From NCBI RefSeq assembly GCF_041248615.1, contig NZ_CP158426.1: DNA of 64,000 nucleotides; one strand, given 5' to 3'. The position numbers and the translations under genes were made by a program. Under the pieces are notes generated by a model, which had not been told where the DNA came from, did not search any database, and worked only from the letters and a program-made list of their open reading frames with translations. Positions within the stretch are counted from its first letter, which is position 1. Each line of letters begins with the position of its first letter. Positions 1,337-42,191 of this stretch are shown in pieces. Source of the DNA: Escherichia coli. GTDB lineage: Bacteria; Pseudomonadota; Gammaproteobacteria; Enterobacterales; Enterobacteriaceae.

Positions 1337-1424
1337 GGTGAGGTGTCCGAGTGGCTGAAGGAGCACGCCTGGAAAGTGTGTATACGGCAACGTATCGGGG
1401 GTTCGAATCCCCCCCTCACCGCCA
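1337..1424 (+). tRNA. serW: tRNA-Ser (GGA anticodon)
   Basis: 88-nt sequence GGTGAGGTGTCCGAGTGGCTGAAGGAGCACGCCTGGAAAGTGTGTATACGGCAACGTATCGGGGGTTCGAATCCCCCCCTCACCGCCA with long variable arm and CCA end; sits between infA and clpA as in K-12. Confidence 0.9.
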
Positions 1425-2003
1425 TATTTAAAGAAAAGCTCGTACGAAAGTGCGAGCTTTTTTTTTCGCATATTGCACTCCAGGGGGGATGAGAAGCCCC
1501 GACCGGGGTTCGACAACTGGCGCAGCCAGTTGGACAGACCACGAACACAGTGAGTGGGCTGCCCGCAGGGCGAGCGAAGCGAGTCAATCCCCCCCTCACC
1601 GCCATATTCAAAGAAGAGCTCGTACGAAAGTGCGAGCTTTTTTTTCGCATATTGCACTCCAGGGGGGATGAGAAGCCCCGACCGGGGTTCGACAACTGGC
1701 GCAGCCAGTTGGACAGACCACGAACACAGTGAGTGGGCTGCCCGCAGGGCGAGCGAAGCGAGTCTATCCCCCCCTCACCGCCATATTTAAAGAAAAGCTC
1801 GTACGAAAGTGCGAGCTTTTTTTTCGCATATTGCACTCCAGGGGGGATGAGAAGCCCCGACCGGGGTTCGACAACTGGCGCAGCCAGTTGGACAGACCAC
1901 GAACGCAGTGAGTGGGCTGCCCGCAGGGCGAGCGAAGCGAGTCTATCCCCCCCTCACCGCCATATTCAAAGAAGAGCTCGTACGAAAGTACGAGTTTTTT
2001 TTC
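1425..2003. repeat. Tandem direct repeat, three ~179-bp units, each with a terminator hairpin and a copy of the serW 3' end
   Basis: ...CCCCCCCTCACCGCCA recurs ending at 1424, 1604, 1783 and 1962; units near-identical with a few substitutions. Confidence 0.85.
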
Positions 2004-2242
2004 GCATTTTATCTGCCTGTACGGCAGTAAACGGTATAAAAATCGGGTTTTTCTTTCGGCTGGCTTTCTAAGCTGCCTGTACGGCAGTGAACTCAAATAC
2101 TACACGTCTAGCCCGTTGTTAATAAAGCAAAACCATCTCATTTTCCTGCTACCACCCTTTTTTATCCTTACCTTCCCGCAGCACTAATTATCAACAACTT
2201 ACCATCATCATCAAAAAAAGGGTCTGAACCTCCTCCACCCCA

Positions 2243-5552: not shown

Positions 5553-7499
5553 TTACTCTCGTGCCAGAGCATCTACTGGATCCAGTCGTGCCGCATTTCG
5601 TGCGGGTAACCAGCCAAATAAAATCCCGGTGACCGTCGAGCAGAGAAACGCCAGCAGCAGCGCCAACGGTGAAAAACCAATCTCCCAGCCGGGTAAGAAA
5701 AGCTGTAAGGTGAAAGCAATTAACAGTGACAGTGTTATTCCCAACGCGCCACCGACCAGGCAAACCAGTACGGCTTCGATCAGAAACTGTTGCAACACAT
5801 CACTTGCTCGCGCACCTACAGCCATGCGAATGCCAATTTCCCGCGTCCGCTCGGTCACTGACACCAGCATAATATTCATTACACCAATACCGCCCACCAC
5901 TAGCGAAATCACCGCCACCAGCGTCAGAAACAGTTGTAAAGTACGTGTGGTCTTTTCAACGGTTTTCAAGACGCCGTCCATGTTCCAGGTAAAGAAATCC
6001 TTCTTACCGTGGCGCAGTGAAAGTAAACGCGTGAGTTGCTGTTCCGCCTCGGCGCTGTCAAATCCTTCTTTCACCCTGACAGTAATGGAGTTCAGCCACG
6101 ACTGGCCCATAACTCGCCCGGACATCGTGCTGTAAGGTAGCCAGACACGCAGCACTTTACTGCTACCAAACATCGACTGTTTTTCTTCCGCCACACCAAT
6201 GACTCTGGCGGGCATATTGCCGACCAGAATCACCTCGCCAACCACATCTGCTTTATGGGGGAAAAGCTGGCGGCGAGTATTACTGTCGAGCACCACCACC
6301 TGCGCACGACCGTTCAGCTGCTCCTGATTAAAGGTGTTCCCTTCACTGAAGGTCATGCCATAGACATTAAAATAATCGCCGCTCACGCCATTGGCACTGG
6401 CAGCAACATCAACATTGTTATAACGCAGGCGCAGGTTTTGCGAGACGGCAGGTGTGGCTGAGGCGACCCACGGTTGTTTTTGGATGGCGATTAAGTCGTC
6501 GTACTTCAGCGCCTGCTGATATTGCGGATCGTCATCGCCAAAATCTTTCCCGGGATAGACATCAATAGTATTCGTACCAATAGAACGAATATCCGCCAGC
6601 ACCATTTGTTTGGCGGCGTCGCCCACCACGACAATTGAAACCACCGACGCAATACCGATAATAATCCCCAGCATGGTCAGTAAAGTACGCATTTTATTCG
6701 CTGCCAGCGCCCGCCATGCCATCGTCAGCGCTTCGTTAAAACCGCTGACAAATTGCCGCCAGCCAGAGGCCGTGTTGACAACAGGTTCCGTCCCGCCAGC
6801 AACATTCACTTTTTCAACGGCGGGAGGATTGCGCACAATTTCGCCGTCGCGAATTTCGATCACCCGCTCGGCCTGAGCAGCGACCTGCGGATCGTGGGTA
6901 ACGATAATCACCGTATGCCCGCGATCGCGCAGCTGATGCAGGATCGCCATCACCTCTTCGCCAGAATGGCTGTCCAGTGCGCCGGTTGGTTCATCGGCAA
7001 GAATTACCTGACCGCCGTTCATCAATGCCCGCGCGATGCTGACGCGCTGTTGCTGCCCCCCCGAAAGCTGTGCCGGGTAATACTCTGTACGGTCTTCCAG
7101 CCCCAGTCGTTGCAGTAACTCCTGGGCGCGAAGCAGCCGCTGTTTCCGCTCAAGACCGGCATAGACGGCGGGTACTTCAACGTTCTGCTCGGCGGTTAAA
7201 TGCGAAAGCAAATGGTAACGCTGGAAAATAAAGCCGAAGTGTTCGCGACGCAGTTGCGCCAGCGCATCGGCGTCCAGCGTGGCAACATCCTGACCGGCTA
7301 CGCGATAGGTGCCGCTGGTGGCCTTATCCAGGCAGCCGAGAATATTCATCAGGGTCGATTTACCGGAACCCGAAGCGCCGACAATCGCCACCATCTCACC
7401 AGCATAAATATCGAGGGTGATGCCCTTCAGCACCTCAACCTGCTCATCACCGGCAGGATAGCTGCGACGAATATCCTTTAATTCGAGCAAGGGCGTCAT
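5553..7499 (-). CDS. macB: Macrolide export ABC transporter ATP-binding/permease protein MacB
   Basis: 648-aa ORF with N-terminal ABC ATPase ([18 protein letters not shown]) and C-terminal FtsX-like permease. Confidence 0.95.
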
Positions 7500-11798: not shown

Positions 11799-12494
11799 AT
11801 GTTCAGAAAATTAGCAGCTGAATGTTTTGGTACTTTCTGGCTTGTTTTTGGTGGCTGTGGTAGTGCCGTACTGGCCGCAGGCTTCCCGGAATTAGGCATT
11901 GGTTTTGCCGGCGTGGCGTTGGCGTTCGGTCTGACCGTTCTGACGATGGCCTTTGCTGTTGGTCACATTTCTGGTGGTCATTTTAACCCGGCGGTCACTA
12001 TTGGTTTATGGGCTGGCGGACGTTTTCCGGCAAAAGAAGTCGTTGGCTACGTAATTGCCCAGGTTGTCGGCGGTATTGTTGCAGCGGCTCTGCTGTATTT
12101 AATTGCCAGTGGTAAAACGGGTTTTGACGCGGCAGCCAGCGGTTTTGCTTCTAACGGTTATGGCGAGCATTCGCCAGGCGGTTATTCCATGCTTTCCGCG
12201 CTGGTAGTTGAACTGGTATTGAGTGCAGGTTTCCTGCTGGTGATCCACGGCGCAACCGACAAATTCGCTCCTGCTGGTTTTGCGCCGATCGCTATTGGTC
12301 TGGCCTTAACCCTGATTCACTTAATCAGTATTCCGGTGACTAACACTTCTGTTAACCCGGCGCGCAGCACCGCGGTTGCTATCTTCCAGGGCGGCTGGGC
12401 ATTAGAACAACTGTGGTTCTTCTGGGTGGTGCCAATTGTCGGCGGTATTATCGGTGGTCTGATTTACCGGACCCTGCTGGAAAAACGTAATTAA
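11799..12494 (+). CDS. aqpZ: Aquaporin Z
   Basis: [27 protein letters not shown]... with two NPA motifs ([14 protein letters not shown]). Confidence 0.95.
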
Positions 12495-12504
12495 TTAACG
12501 CAGA

Positions 12505-12532
12505 AGGCCTGGCGCAATGTCAGGCCTTTTTT
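12505..12532 (+). terminator. Rho-independent terminator after aqpZ
   Basis: aggcctg-gcgcaatgt-caggcct followed by TTTTTT. Confidence 0.6.
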
Positions 12533-12589
12533 AAATATATTGATTCATCTTCCTGTTGCGCTCCTTGATGTGTTAAGCCACATATAGTC

Positions 12590-12830
12590 ACTGGCGCAGG
12601 GAGCGCGCAGGGGGCGGCCAATCGCCGCCGCCCCCTGCACCCCCGGGCTCTGGCGAACAAAATCGCCGCTGCGCGGTGCCCTCGACTTATCCCTTGCGGC
12701 TACCGGGTCGGGCGCGAGATAACATCCCTGTAAAACGCGCCCTCAGCCCACATCCATGTGGGCTGCCCCGGCCTTCAGGGAACGCCTCGGCGATTTTGAC
12801 GCCACCAACACCGGTGCGGTTTGTAATTAA
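12590..12830. other. GC-rich intergenic element with several strong hairpins
   Basis: cagggggcggcc...gccgccccctg and agcccacatccatgtgggct dyads in an otherwise AT-rich intergenic region. Confidence 0.4.
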
Positions 12831-12977
12831 AGCGCAAGAATATCTTTAAATGAAAATGAATACCCTACCGATCCTTATGCATAACATTTCCTTTTAATTG
12901 CAACTTTACTCGTCCTTCCGCTTTCAGTAGTGTGTCATCGCGCATTTCGACTTCATCTTTGCAAGGACTGGGTTTTC

Positions 12978-13877
12978 ATGTTTTCTGGGCTGTTAATCAT
13001 TCTGGTTCCCCTGATTGTGGGTTACCTCATTCCTCTTCGCCAAAAAGCTGCATTAAGAGTTATTAATCAGCTATTAAGCTGGATGGTTTACCTCATTCTC
13101 TTTTTTATGGGTATCAGTCTGGCGTTTCTCGATAACCTCGCCAGTAACCTGTTGGCGATTCTGCATTATTCCGCCGTCAGCATTACCATTATTTTACTCT
13201 GCAATATTATTGCGTTGTTGTGGCTGGAGCGCGGTCTGCCGTGGCGCAACCACCACCAGCAAGAAAAACTCCCGTCGCGTATTGCGATGGCGCTGGAGTC
13301 GCTAAAACTGTGCGGCGTAGTAGTGATTGGTTTTGCCATTGGCCTGAGTGGACTGGCTTTCTTACAACATGCGACCGAAGCCAGTGAATACACCTTAATT
13401 CTGCTACTTTTCCTCGTCGGTATTCAGTTGCGCAATAATGGCATGACCTTAAAGCAGATTGTCCTTAATCGCCGGGGAATGATTGTCGCCGTGGTGGTGG
13501 TTGCCAGTTCATTAATTGGTGGTTTAATTAACGCCTTTATTCTTGATCTTCCCATCAATACCGCGCTGGCAATGGCCTCTGGTTTCGGCTGGTATTCTCT
13601 TTCCGGTATTTTATTGACTGAATCTTTTGGTCCGGTAATCGGGAGCGCGGCGTTTTTTAATGATCTGGCCCGTGAGCTGATTGCAATTATGTTGATCCCT
13701 GGGCTGATTCGCCGCAGCCGCTCTACCGCACTGGGCTTATGCGGTGCGACGTCGATGGATTTCACCCTGCCCGTTCTTCAACGTACTGGCGGGCTGGATA
13801 TGGTCCCGGCGGCGATTGTTCACGGTTTTATTCTTAGCCTGTTAGTGCCGATCCTCATCGCTTTTTTCTCTGCATAA
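12978..13877 (+). CDS. lysO: Lysine exporter LysO (YbjE)
   Basis: ORF 12930-13877; start placed at MFSGLLIILVPLIVGYLIPL; polytopic membrane protein in K-12 position. Confidence 0.85.
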   Translation: MFSGLLIILVPLIVGYLIPLRQKAALRVINQLLSWMVYLILFFMGISLAFLDNLASNLLAILHYSAVSITIILLCNIIALLWLERGLPWRNHHQQEKLPSRIAMALESLKLCGVVVIGFAIGLSGLAFLQHATEASEYTLILLLFLVGIQLRNNGMTLKQIVLNRRGMIVAVVVVASSLIGGLINAFILDLPINTALAMASGFGWYSLSGILLTESFGPVIGSAAFFNDLARELIAIMLIPGLIRRSRSTALGLCGATSMDFTLPVLQRTGGLDMVPAAIVHGFILSLLVPILIAFFSA

Positions 13878-42032: not shown

Positions 42033-42111
42033 GCCACTGCTTTTCTTTGATGTCCCCATTTTGTGGAGCCCATCAACCCCGCCATTTCGGTTCAAGGTTG
42101 GTGGGTTTTTT
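42033..42111 (+). ncRNA. rybB: RybB small RNA (sigma-E-dependent)
   Basis: GCCACTGCTTTTCTTTGATGTCCCCATTTTGTGGAGCCCATCAACCCCGCCATTTCGGTTCAAGGTTGGTGGGTTTTTT matches recalled RybB nearly base for base; lies downstream of ybjL as in K-12. Confidence 0.8.
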
Positions 42112-42191
42112 GTTGCCTGAAATTTATGCCTTTTAAAATCATGATATTAGAAGCACTGTTTTTTAACGATGGCGACAAAATGGCGGCAGCG

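What the first reader, a model, noticed from the sequence alone, without database searches (positions are those of the whole stretch)
12590..12830. GC-rich hairpin-dense element in the aqpZ-lysO intergenic region
About 240 bp of unusually GC-rich sequence with several strong dyads (cagggggcggccaatcgccgccgccccctg; agcccacatccatgtgggct) sits in an otherwise AT-rich intergenic region between the aqpZ terminator and lysO. It does not match the canonical REP consensus. It could be a different class of intergenic repeat, a structured 5' leader for lysO, or an sRNA.
Basis: seen in the sequence. Interest (0 to 1): 0.3.

Follow-up and report, generated by a model that had tools for sequence, protein, structure and literature searches.

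The report
Known replication-gap repeat RRS-lysO (TRIP1a)
The GC-rich, hairpin-dense block between aqpZ and lysO is real, but it is already described: it is the E. coli repeat TRIP1a, renamed "replication risk sequence" RRS-lysO, which folds when unwound and makes the replication machinery leave a short single-stranded gap.

Summary
Window 12554-12826 is a 273-bp block of 64-74% GC with perfect dyads, and it folds far better than shuffles (z about -6 on either strand).

It is not a lysO leader or an sRNA gene. It is TRIP1a (Rudd 1999; Li 2024), also called RRS-lysO (Pham 2023, 2024; Kusi-Appauh 2026). It is 95.6% identical to K-12 915009-915282 and sits in the same gene context. The published G-quadruplex 20-mer is exact at 12625-12644 on the minus strand, and GC skew indicates the minus strand is the lagging-strand template.

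Published experiments show that this element blocks lagging-strand synthesis. That leaves RecA/SSB-bound gaps of up to 2 kb, here over lysO. They also show it is conditionally essential together with RRS-dusC.

My additions:
- The family is dispersed: median 3 copies per E. coli genome and up to 13 in a Klebsiella chromosome.
- 14 of 77 base pairs show compensatory changes.
- 895 of 5426 E. coli genomes carry the element precisely inverted at this locus.
- The 155-nt core resembles the orphan Rfam motif TwoAYGGAY. It scores 32 bits against a cut-off of 43, but a model of the core hits a cut-off-passing TwoAYGGAY at 64 bits.

Novelty: already known. The TwoAYGGAY link appears unreported.

The parts
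12554..12826 (.). Full TRIP1a repeat, as bounded by homology to paralogs and by the naturally inverted allele
   Evidence: BLAST to K-12 (95.6% over 273 nt, equal to K-12 915009-915282), to TRIP1c, to the putP copy and to the E69 inverted allele. Li et al. give TRIP1a as K-12 915016-915281.
12592..12814 (-). About 222-bp RRS core, the part conserved at about 85% in Klebsiella copies
   Evidence: Klebsiella hits cover query 13-235, which is 12592-12814. Pham et al. describe 222-bp repeats.
12625..12644 (-). Published G-quadruplex-forming 20-mer GGGGGTGCAGGGGGCGGCGG
   Evidence: Exact and unique match in the window, with 0 expected by chance. The sequence is taken from Pham 2024.
12607..12638 (.). 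12-bp GC hairpin (helix 10) overlapping the G4 tract
   Evidence: Inverted repeat I3. 12 pairs, 4 with compensatory changes, 100% of cells paired. Coordinates.
12641..12816 (-). Multi-branched TwoAYGGAY-like domain, closed by a long outer stem (helix 1: 12791-12816 with 12641-12665)
   Evidence: RNAalifold and pair counts. Rfam RF01731 aligns end to end at 12660-12799, minus strand, 32.3 bits. Model R1 scores 183 bits here.
12744..12765 (-). Hairpin 1, with loop AUGGAU on the minus strand
   Evidence: Inverted repeat I10. Helix 6 has 9 pairs, one with an A-U to G-C swap in 7 of 15 copies.
12710..12742 (-). Hairpin 2, with loop AGGGAU on the minus strand
   Evidence: Helices 7 and 8. Direct repeat ACATCCCTGT/ACATCCATGT, 28 nt apart (D5).
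12558..12606 (.). Left-arm hairpin (helix 11: 12558-12565 with 12599-12606) enclosing a loop that varies between copies
   Evidence: Inverted repeat I14. Helix 11 has 8 pairs and 96.7% of cells paired. The loop is not conserved between E. coli and Klebsiella.
12504..12534 (+). Context only: aqpZ terminator-like hairpin (AAGGCCTG...CAGGCCTT) followed by TTTTTT. It lies upstream of the repeat and is not part of it.
   Evidence: Inverted repeat I15 and the sequence itself. Li et al. place TRIP1a downstream of the apparent aqpZ terminator.
12978..13877 (+). Context only: lysO. By the published K-12 interval, the RecA/SSB-bound lagging-strand gap extends over this gene.
   Evidence: Annotation of the identical record. 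Pham 2023 give the enrichment interval as K-12 913842-915206, which spans lysO.

Best explanation
This is RRS-lysO, also called TRIP1a, one of the two 'replication risk sequences' of E. coli.

Mechanism: when the fork passes, it moves from high to low window coordinates. The G-rich minus strand is then the lagging-strand template and becomes single-stranded. It folds into very stable structures: the G-tract/12-bp GC hairpin at 12607-12644 and a multi-branched domain at 12641-12816. The lagging-strand polymerase stalls there and re-primes, leaving a post-replication gap of up to about 2 kb over lysO. SSB and RecA bind the gap.

Together with its inverted partner RRS-dusC, about 1.3 Mb away, the element flanks the Ter macrodomain. 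It is proposed to act as a transient topological swivel.

Shown here by tools: identity, position, the G4 motif, its strand relative to GC skew, and structure conservation. Shown experimentally by others: polymerase block, gap formation, conditional essentiality and supercoiling effects. Inferred: the swivel function, and that the same happens in this strain.
For: Sequence identity to K-12 TRIP1a coordinates and the same aqpZ/lysO context.

The distances match Li et al.: the repeat ends 158 nt before the lysO ATG, and the aqpZ-side spacing differs only by an 11-nt flank indel.

The published G4 20-mer is exact and unique on the minus strand. Plus-strand GC skew is negative in 14 of 15 8-kb windows, so the minus strand is the lagging-strand template. 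In K-12 the 20-mer is on the top strand at lysO and on the bottom strand at dusC.

Structure conservation: 99.2% of 1153 cells are paired, 14 of 77 pairs show compensatory changes, 0 of 500 shuffles reach these values, and slid controls give 0-4 such pairs.

Literature:
- RecA/SSB ssDNA peaks depend on the RRS (PMC10287960).
- Pol I, II and IV are blocked at the G4 site. Ectopic RRS create new peaks. The double deletion is viable only with a 200-kb amplification. Supercoiling changes (PMC11194060).
- Single-molecule work shows gaps at nearly every replisome encounter (bioRxiv 10.64898/2026.06.16.732529).
Against: About 16% of complete E. coli genomes (895 of 5426) carry the element inverted at this locus. 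Li et al. report 1255 of 4703 TRIP1a copies reversed and about half of TRIP1c copies reversed. The 'G4 on the lagging template' orientation is therefore not fixed in nature. Engineered inverted RRS give no RecA peak.

The G-tract lies inside a covarying hairpin. A term search of the main text of the 2024 paper found no potassium, lithium, circular-dichroism or G4-mutant test. G4 versus hairpin as the actual block is therefore unresolved.

The invariant GGA loops are not explained by a simple roadblock model.

Nothing was measured in this strain.
Confidence: 0.85

Rival explanations
1. The element's conserved core acts as, or through, a structured RNA of the TwoAYGGAY class. It would be transcribed from the minus strand and present two GGA hairpin loops, for example to a CsrA dimer.
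For: Rfam RF01731 is the best hit: full-length alignment, 32.3 bits, E 0.004, minus strand; 31.0 bits in Pseudocitrobacter.

My model of the RRS core hits a gathering-score-passing TwoAYGGAY (49.2 bits) at 64.3 bits, E 1e-12, full length.

The loops ACAUGGAUGU and ACAGGGAUGU are the same decamers as in Psychromonas TwoAYGGAY seeds. They fit the CsrA SELEX consensus RUACARGGAUGU (my own knowledge). Gardner & Eldai proposed that TwoAYGGAY binds CsrA (PMC4333381).

All 15 copies fold 5-22 kcal/mol better on this strand.
Against: The score is below Rfam's cut-off, and a Klebsiella copy gives no hit at E<=1.

No promoter-like or terminator-like site was found.

In the E. coli CsrA integrated data set, dusC and ybjE carry 'No' in all four Yes/No columns (which I take to be the CLIP flags; the header row was not read) and are classed NS.

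On pairs shared by both strand folds, G-U versus A-C counts are 7 versus 4, which does not decide the strand.

Gap formation is reproduced in vitro on DNA.
Confidence: 0.1
2. It is essentially a selfish, non-autonomous mobile repeat (MITE-like or ssDNA-transposed). Its presence here is incidental, and its effects on replication are by-products.
For: Copy number varies from 1 to 8 per E. coli genome. One K. pneumoniae chromosome has up to 13 places, at loci unrelated to the E. coli ones.

The element is precisely flipped between the same flanks. Internal-deletion derivatives exist.

The TwoAYGGAY relatives in Psychromonas are also multi-copy: 7 in the stored part of the published alignment.
Against: I saw no terminal inverted repeats or target-site duplication. 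No associated transposase gene was looked for or noticed. There is no match in phages.

In E. coli, 99% of copies sit at five fixed loci.

Sequence and structure are strongly conserved across genera, with compensatory changes. [quoted passage not shown]
Confidence: 0.12
3. It is a locus-specific regulatory element: a lysO 5' leader or attenuator, or an extension of the aqpZ terminator.
For: It lies 60 nt after the aqpZ stop codon and 152-158 nt before the lysO ATG. All five E. coli TRIP1 types lie 38-96 bp downstream of a stop codon.
Against: The same element lies next to unrelated genes. Its orientation is polymorphic at this very locus. No riboswitch or leader family matches. The sequence from 12874 to the lysO start is 99% identical between the forward and inverted alleles and could carry the lysO promoter on its own.
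Confidence: 0.04

Closest known systems
RRS-lysO / TRIP1a of E. coli K-12 (Rudd 1999; Pham et al. 2023, 2024; Li et al. 2024)
   Same: It is the same element at the same locus. It is 95.6% identical over 273 nt, carries the identical G4 20-mer, has the same orientation relative to aqpZ/lysO and to replication, and has the same distance to lysO.
   Different: This strain's allele is a minority sequence variant. Only 487 of 5426 genomes are >=99% identical over the repeat plus its flanks, while most are 90-95%. The aqpZ-side flank is 11 nt shorter than in K-12.
RRS-dusC / TRIP1c, and TRIP1b, d and e
   Same: They are paralogs 89-94% identical with the same predicted fold. TRIP1c is the inverted partner about 1.3 Mb away.
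   Different: They sit at different loci. TRIP1b in K-12 lacks the internal 125 bp, which is the TwoAYGGAY-like core.
TwoAYGGAY RNA motif (Rfam RF01731; Weinberg 2010)
   Same: Both have a long closing stem, an inner stem and two adjacent hairpins whose loops read AUGGAU and AGGGAY. Both families are multi-copy. The RRS-core model scores 64 bits on a bona fide member.
   Different: The E. coli copy scores 32 bits against a cut-off of 43, and Klebsiella copies score below E=1. The RRS adds a G-rich hairpin/G4 and a left-arm hairpin outside the motif. The RRS has a demonstrated DNA-level activity, whereas TwoAYGGAY is annotated as an RNA of unknown function. No E. coli, Klebsiella, Enterobacter or Citrobacter accession that I tested appears in the stored part of the original alignment.
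REP/BIME elements
   Same: Both are GC-rich, palindromic, extragenic and multi-copy, and both are linked to DNA topology (BIME-2 binds gyrase, as cited).
   Different: The RRS has no REP consensus. It is about 270 bp against about 35 bp for a REP unit. It has 1-8 copies per genome rather than hundreds.
Neisseria gonorrhoeae pilE G4
   Same: It is a G-quadruplex-forming sequence reported to trigger gap formation, and Pham et al. cite it as the only comparable bacterial case.
   Different: It is a short, single-locus motif that serves pilin antigenic variation. It is not a 222-bp structured repeat flanking the terminus. I did not compare the sequences.

Membership tests
RRS / TRIP1 repeats | High sequence identity to the K-12 TRIP1a/RRS sequence over its whole length | tested here: met
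   95.6% over 273-274 nt to K-12 915009-915282, and 93.7% to TRIP1c.
RRS / TRIP1 repeats | Location between aqpZ and lysO (ybjE), downstream of the aqpZ terminator and 158 bp upstream of lysO | tested here: met
   aqpZ 11799-12494; TRIP1a equivalent 12555-12819; lysO ATG at 12978.
RRS / TRIP1 repeats | G4-forming 20-mer GGGGGTGCAGGGGGCGGCGG on the strand that serves as lagging-strand template | tested here: met
   Exact match at 12625-12644 on the minus strand. The plus strand has negative GC skew in 14 of 15 windows, so the minus strand is the lagging-strand template.
RRS / TRIP1 repeats | Inverted partner copy near dusC, with the pair symmetric about dif | not testable with these tools
   The partner lies outside the 64-kb window. 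In K-12 the dusC copy and its opposite G4 strand were verified. The best-matching genome has 5 places.
RRS / TRIP1 repeats | Triggers RecA/SSB-bound post-replication gaps on the lagging strand | not testable with these tools
   This is an experimental property, shown for K-12.
TwoAYGGAY (Rfam RF01731) | Covariance-model score at or above the gathering score (43 bits) | tested here: not met
   32.3 bits in the window, 31.0 in Pseudocitrobacter, and no hit at E<=1 for a Klebsiella copy.
TwoAYGGAY (Rfam RF01731) | Two terminal loops carrying AYGGAY | tested here: inconclusive
   Loop 1 is AUGGAU, which fits. Loop 2 is AGGGAU or AGGGAC, with G in place of Y at position 2. The same variant occurs in published Psychromonas seeds.
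TwoAYGGAY (Rfam RF01731) | Closing P1 stem around the two hairpins | tested here: met
   Helix 1 has 20 pairs, 3 of them with compensatory changes.
TwoAYGGAY (Rfam RF01731) | Reciprocal similarity to an accepted member | tested here: met
   Model R1, built from RRS cores only, hits L018 5633-5786 at 64.3 bits, E 1e-12, model positions 1-155 of 155. That sequence passes Rfam's cut-off at 49.2 bits.
REP/BIME | REP consensus (GCCKGATGCGRCGY...) | tested here: not met
   The only match in the window is at 29489, with none in 12500-12900. There is no naRNA4 hit.
CsrA-sequestering sRNA (CsrB/CsrC type) | An own promoter and terminator, many GGA sites, and in vivo CsrA binding | tested here: not met
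   No promoter-like or terminator-like site. Only two GGA loops. dusC and ybjE carry 'No' in all four Yes/No columns (taken to be CLIP flags; header not read) and are classed NS in Potts 2017.

The most novel reading that the evidence does not exclude
The conserved core of the RRS is an enterobacterial branch of the orphan TwoAYGGAY family.

If so, one of two things follows. Either the TwoAYGGAY 'RNA' motifs of other gamma-proteobacteria, Clostridia and gut metagenomes are really DNA-level, RRS-like elements that fold on the lagging-strand template. Or the RRS depends on a factor that reads its two invariant GGA hairpin loops.

A corollary concerns the G-tract. The selected feature there may be the covarying 12-bp hairpin rather than, or as well as, the G-quadruplex.
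Probability: 0.25. Interest if true: 0.65.

Novelty: already known. Interest (0 to 1): 0.3.

Why it matters
The element itself matters. It is a programmed replication obstacle that creates post-replication gaps, flanks the Ter macrodomain and is conditionally essential. All of that is published.

What this check adds:
- A clear identification, so the finding need not be pursued as a new RNA.
- Comparative evidence that the stems are under selection. This includes the hairpin that contains the proposed G4.
- A count of the natural inverted allele (895 of 5426 genomes), which sits awkwardly with an orientation-dependent function.
- A reciprocal covariance-model link to Rfam's TwoAYGGAY motif. 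This could extend the RRS concept beyond enterobacteria or point to a loop-binding partner.

Tried and rejected
**REP/BIME.** No consensus match in the block.

**Riboswitch, leader or known sRNA.** No Rfam family reaches its gathering score in the region or elsewhere near it. The cow-rumen-3 and microRNA hits are weak GC-hairpin artefacts.

**Autonomous sRNA gene.** The promoter/terminator scan found nothing. Hexamers that I read by eye at the AT-richer left edge have 19-21 nt spacers, so I dropped them.

**Sigma-54 promoter.** I read TGGCGCAGGGAGCGC as a possible sigma-54 site by eye. The GG of the -24 element varies among copies, so I rejected it.

**CsrA sponge.** The loops fit the consensus, but Potts 2017 flags nothing for dusC or ybjE.

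**Phage or plasmid origin.** There is no phage match. The 'plasmid' hits are mostly mislabelled chromosomal records.

**Mobile-element signatures.** I found no terminal inverted repeats or target duplications at the junctions of the forward and inverted alleles.

**Strand test by G-U versus A-C.** Counts were 38 versus 4 on the structure predicted from the G strand, but only 7 versus 4 on pairs shared with the C-strand fold. This is inconclusive.

**Orientation of extra copies relative to replication, from local GC skew.** This is unreliable, because the K-12 control locus gives the wrong sign.

**ViennaRNA folding with the G-quadruplex option.** The hairpin wins with RNA parameters. A small G4 appears only with mixed DNA/RNA energies. 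This is not informative.

**BLAST of the Pseudocitrobacter TwoAYGGAY element against E. coli.** No match.

**Genome-collection scan.** The strict 28-nt pattern returned only 15 loci, so the family's range beyond Escherichia, Klebsiella and Pseudocitrobacter was not mapped.

Full report
**The observation**

The window is an E. coli segment carrying ybjD, aqpZ, lysO and hcp. It is 100% identical to NZ_LT599825.1 and reverse-complemented relative to K-12.

Between the aqpZ stop codon (12494) and the lysO ATG (12978), GC content rises to 0.63-0.74 across 12550-12800. The flanks are at 0.37-0.46. A 16-nt outer inverted repeat encloses the second one.

Either strand of 12554-12826 folds about six standard deviations better than dinucleotide shuffles. 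The REP consensus is absent.

**What it is**

The block is not unique. Megablast finds it in 5425 of 5426 complete E. coli genomes, with a median of 3 and up to 8 places per genome, and it is unannotated everywhere. Copies about 85% identical occur in Klebsiella, with up to 13 places in one chromosome. One copy was found in Pseudocitrobacter. None were found in phages.

One E. coli paralog lies between putP and efeU. Forms with an internal deletion also exist.

A literature search on the flanking genes identified the element as TRIP1a (Rudd 1999; Li et al. 2024, PMC10888264). Their K-12 coordinates, 915016-915281, match my alignment, 915009-915282. The distance to lysO, 158 bp, also matches.

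A second search showed that the same repeat has been renamed Replication Risk Sequence, RRS-lysO:
- Pham et al., NAR 2023 (PMC10287960)
- Pham et al., NAR 2024 (PMC11194060)
- Kusi-Appauh et al. 2026, bioRxiv

**How it works**

The following comes from published experiments:
- They anchor RecA- and SSB-bound single-stranded DNA peaks on the lagging strand, and the peaks disappear when the repeat is deleted.
- A predicted G-quadruplex, 5'-GGGGGTGCAGGGGGCGGCGG, blocks Pol I, II and IV.
- Ectopic copies create new peaks.
- Both copies can be deleted only with a compensating 200-kb amplification, or if other or inverted copies are present.
- Loss of both copies reshapes genome supercoiling.
- In single-molecule assays, a gap forms at almost every encounter when the G strand is the lagging-strand template.

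I checked what can be checked in sequence. The 20-mer is exact and unique at 12625-12644 on the minus strand. Plus-strand GC skew is negative in 14 of 15 8-kb windows, so the minus strand is the lagging-strand template. In K-12 the motif sits on opposite strands at the two loci, as published.

By inference, the fork moves from high to low window coordinates. Okazaki synthesis enters the element from its left end and stalls at about 12625-12644. The gap then extends rightward over lysO. This agrees with the published enrichment interval, K-12 913842-915206.

**Structure conservation**

I aligned 15 distinct copies from Escherichia, Klebsiella and Pseudocitrobacter. The consensus fold has 77 pairs in 11 helices.
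- 99.2% of cells are paired.
- 14 pairs carry compensatory double changes.
- No shuffle out of 500 reaches these values.
- Slid controls give 0-4 compensatory pairs.

Covariation cannot distinguish RNA from single-stranded DNA. The strand test by wobble pairs is also inconclusive once it is restricted to pairs shared by both strand folds, at 7 versus 4.

The 12-bp hairpin that contains most of the G4 tract has four covarying pairs. A term search of the main text of the 2024 paper found no cation-dependence, circular-dichroism or G4-mutant test. Whether the G4 or the hairpin is the selected roadblock is therefore open.

**Natural orientation polymorphism**

In strain E69 the whole element (12554-12826 equivalent) is flipped between aqpZ and lysO. 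The short adjacent flanks remain weakly homologous in the same orientation. I saw no terminal repeats or target duplications.

The window-type forward allele is present in 4029 of 5426 genomes. The inverted allele is present in 895. This is in line with Li et al., who report 3448 forward and 1255 reverse. It is in tension with an orientation-dependent mechanism, because engineered inversions abolish the RecA peak. The window carries the majority orientation.

**A link that appears unreported**

The best Rfam hit in the region is TwoAYGGAY (RF01731) on the minus strand. The alignment covers the whole model. It scores 32.3 bits, below the 43-bit cut-off, with E 0.004.

The two loops read ACAUGGAUGU and ACAGGGAUGU. 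Published Psychromonas seeds carry the same decamers.

In Pseudocitrobacter, an RRS copy lies head to head with an element that passes the Rfam cut-off at 49.2 bits. A covariance model built only from RRS cores hits that element at 64.3 bits (E 1e-12) over its full length.

Against membership, a Klebsiella RRS copy gives no TwoAYGGAY hit. No enterobacterial accession that I tested appears in the stored part of the original alignment. None of the 7 papers listed (of 12 that mention TwoAYGGAY in the library) deals with RRS or TRIP1.

I therefore treat the RRS core as related to TwoAYGGAY but not as a member by Rfam's criterion.

The published idea that TwoAYGGAY binds CsrA fits the loop sequences. 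It finds no support in E. coli CsrA data for the adjacent genes.

**Verdict**

This is a real and functionally important element, and it is already known. The leader and sRNA readings are not supported. Interest is low to moderate. The residual novelty lies in the TwoAYGGAY connection, the invariant loops, the hairpin-versus-G4 question and the unexplained natural inversion.

Noticed in passing
window 1406-2007 (with tRNA at 1337-1421 and an RtT hit at 1468-1604): A tandem array of 3.4 copies of a 179-bp unit (97% matches) sits directly downstream of a tRNA gene. Each unit holds a terminator-like hairpin. Rfam calls part of it RtT RNA, exactly at its cut-off (45.1 bits against 45).
   Followed up: partly
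window 2065-2092 (minus strand): A single isolated match to the Rfam CRISPR-DR4 direct repeat (50.1 bits, cut-off 35) lies just after the tandem array. I did not look for a CRISPR array or cas genes.
   Followed up: no
window 42036-42114 (+): RybB sRNA gene, 104 bits. This is an ordinary known feature.
   Followed up: no
L009 3881-4154 (E. coli E69), compared with window 12554-12826: A natural allele has the whole RRS flipped between aqpZ and lysO, and 895 of 5426 complete genomes carry it. The 45-60 nt directly flanking the element are far more diverged between the two alleles than the sequence further out, which is 99% identical from 12874 on. No end repeats were found.
   Followed up: partly
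L018 5418-5571 (minus) and 5633-5786 (plus), Pseudocitrobacter vendiensis: An RRS copy and a cut-off-passing TwoAYGGAY element lie head to head about 60 nt apart. The second element is followed by G-rich hairpins at about 5787-5840. This resembles the core-plus-G-hairpin layout of the RRS.
   Followed up: partly
L005 2963-3105 and L006 2960-3098: Short RRS forms lack the equivalent of about window 12639-12761, the TwoAYGGAY-like core. The junctions fall at short CTGC/CCCC microhomologies. This is consistent with slippage across the folded core, and the K-12 TRIP1b copy is of this type.
   Followed up: partly
L004, L010, L012-L014, L019, L020 (Klebsiella copies), about 90 nt to the left of the core in window orientation: Klebsiella copies share a further conserved, AT-richer stretch of about 90 nt beyond the core. 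It has no counterpart in E. coli flanks, so the Klebsiella repeat unit is longer than 222 bp.
   Followed up: no
L011 9-146; L016 3342-3419 and 1731-1811; L013 6326-6410: Known RNAs lie near other RRS copies: a Moco riboswitch, naRNA4 (REP325) and Peptidase-S11 RNA. There is no sign of a functional link.
   Followed up: no
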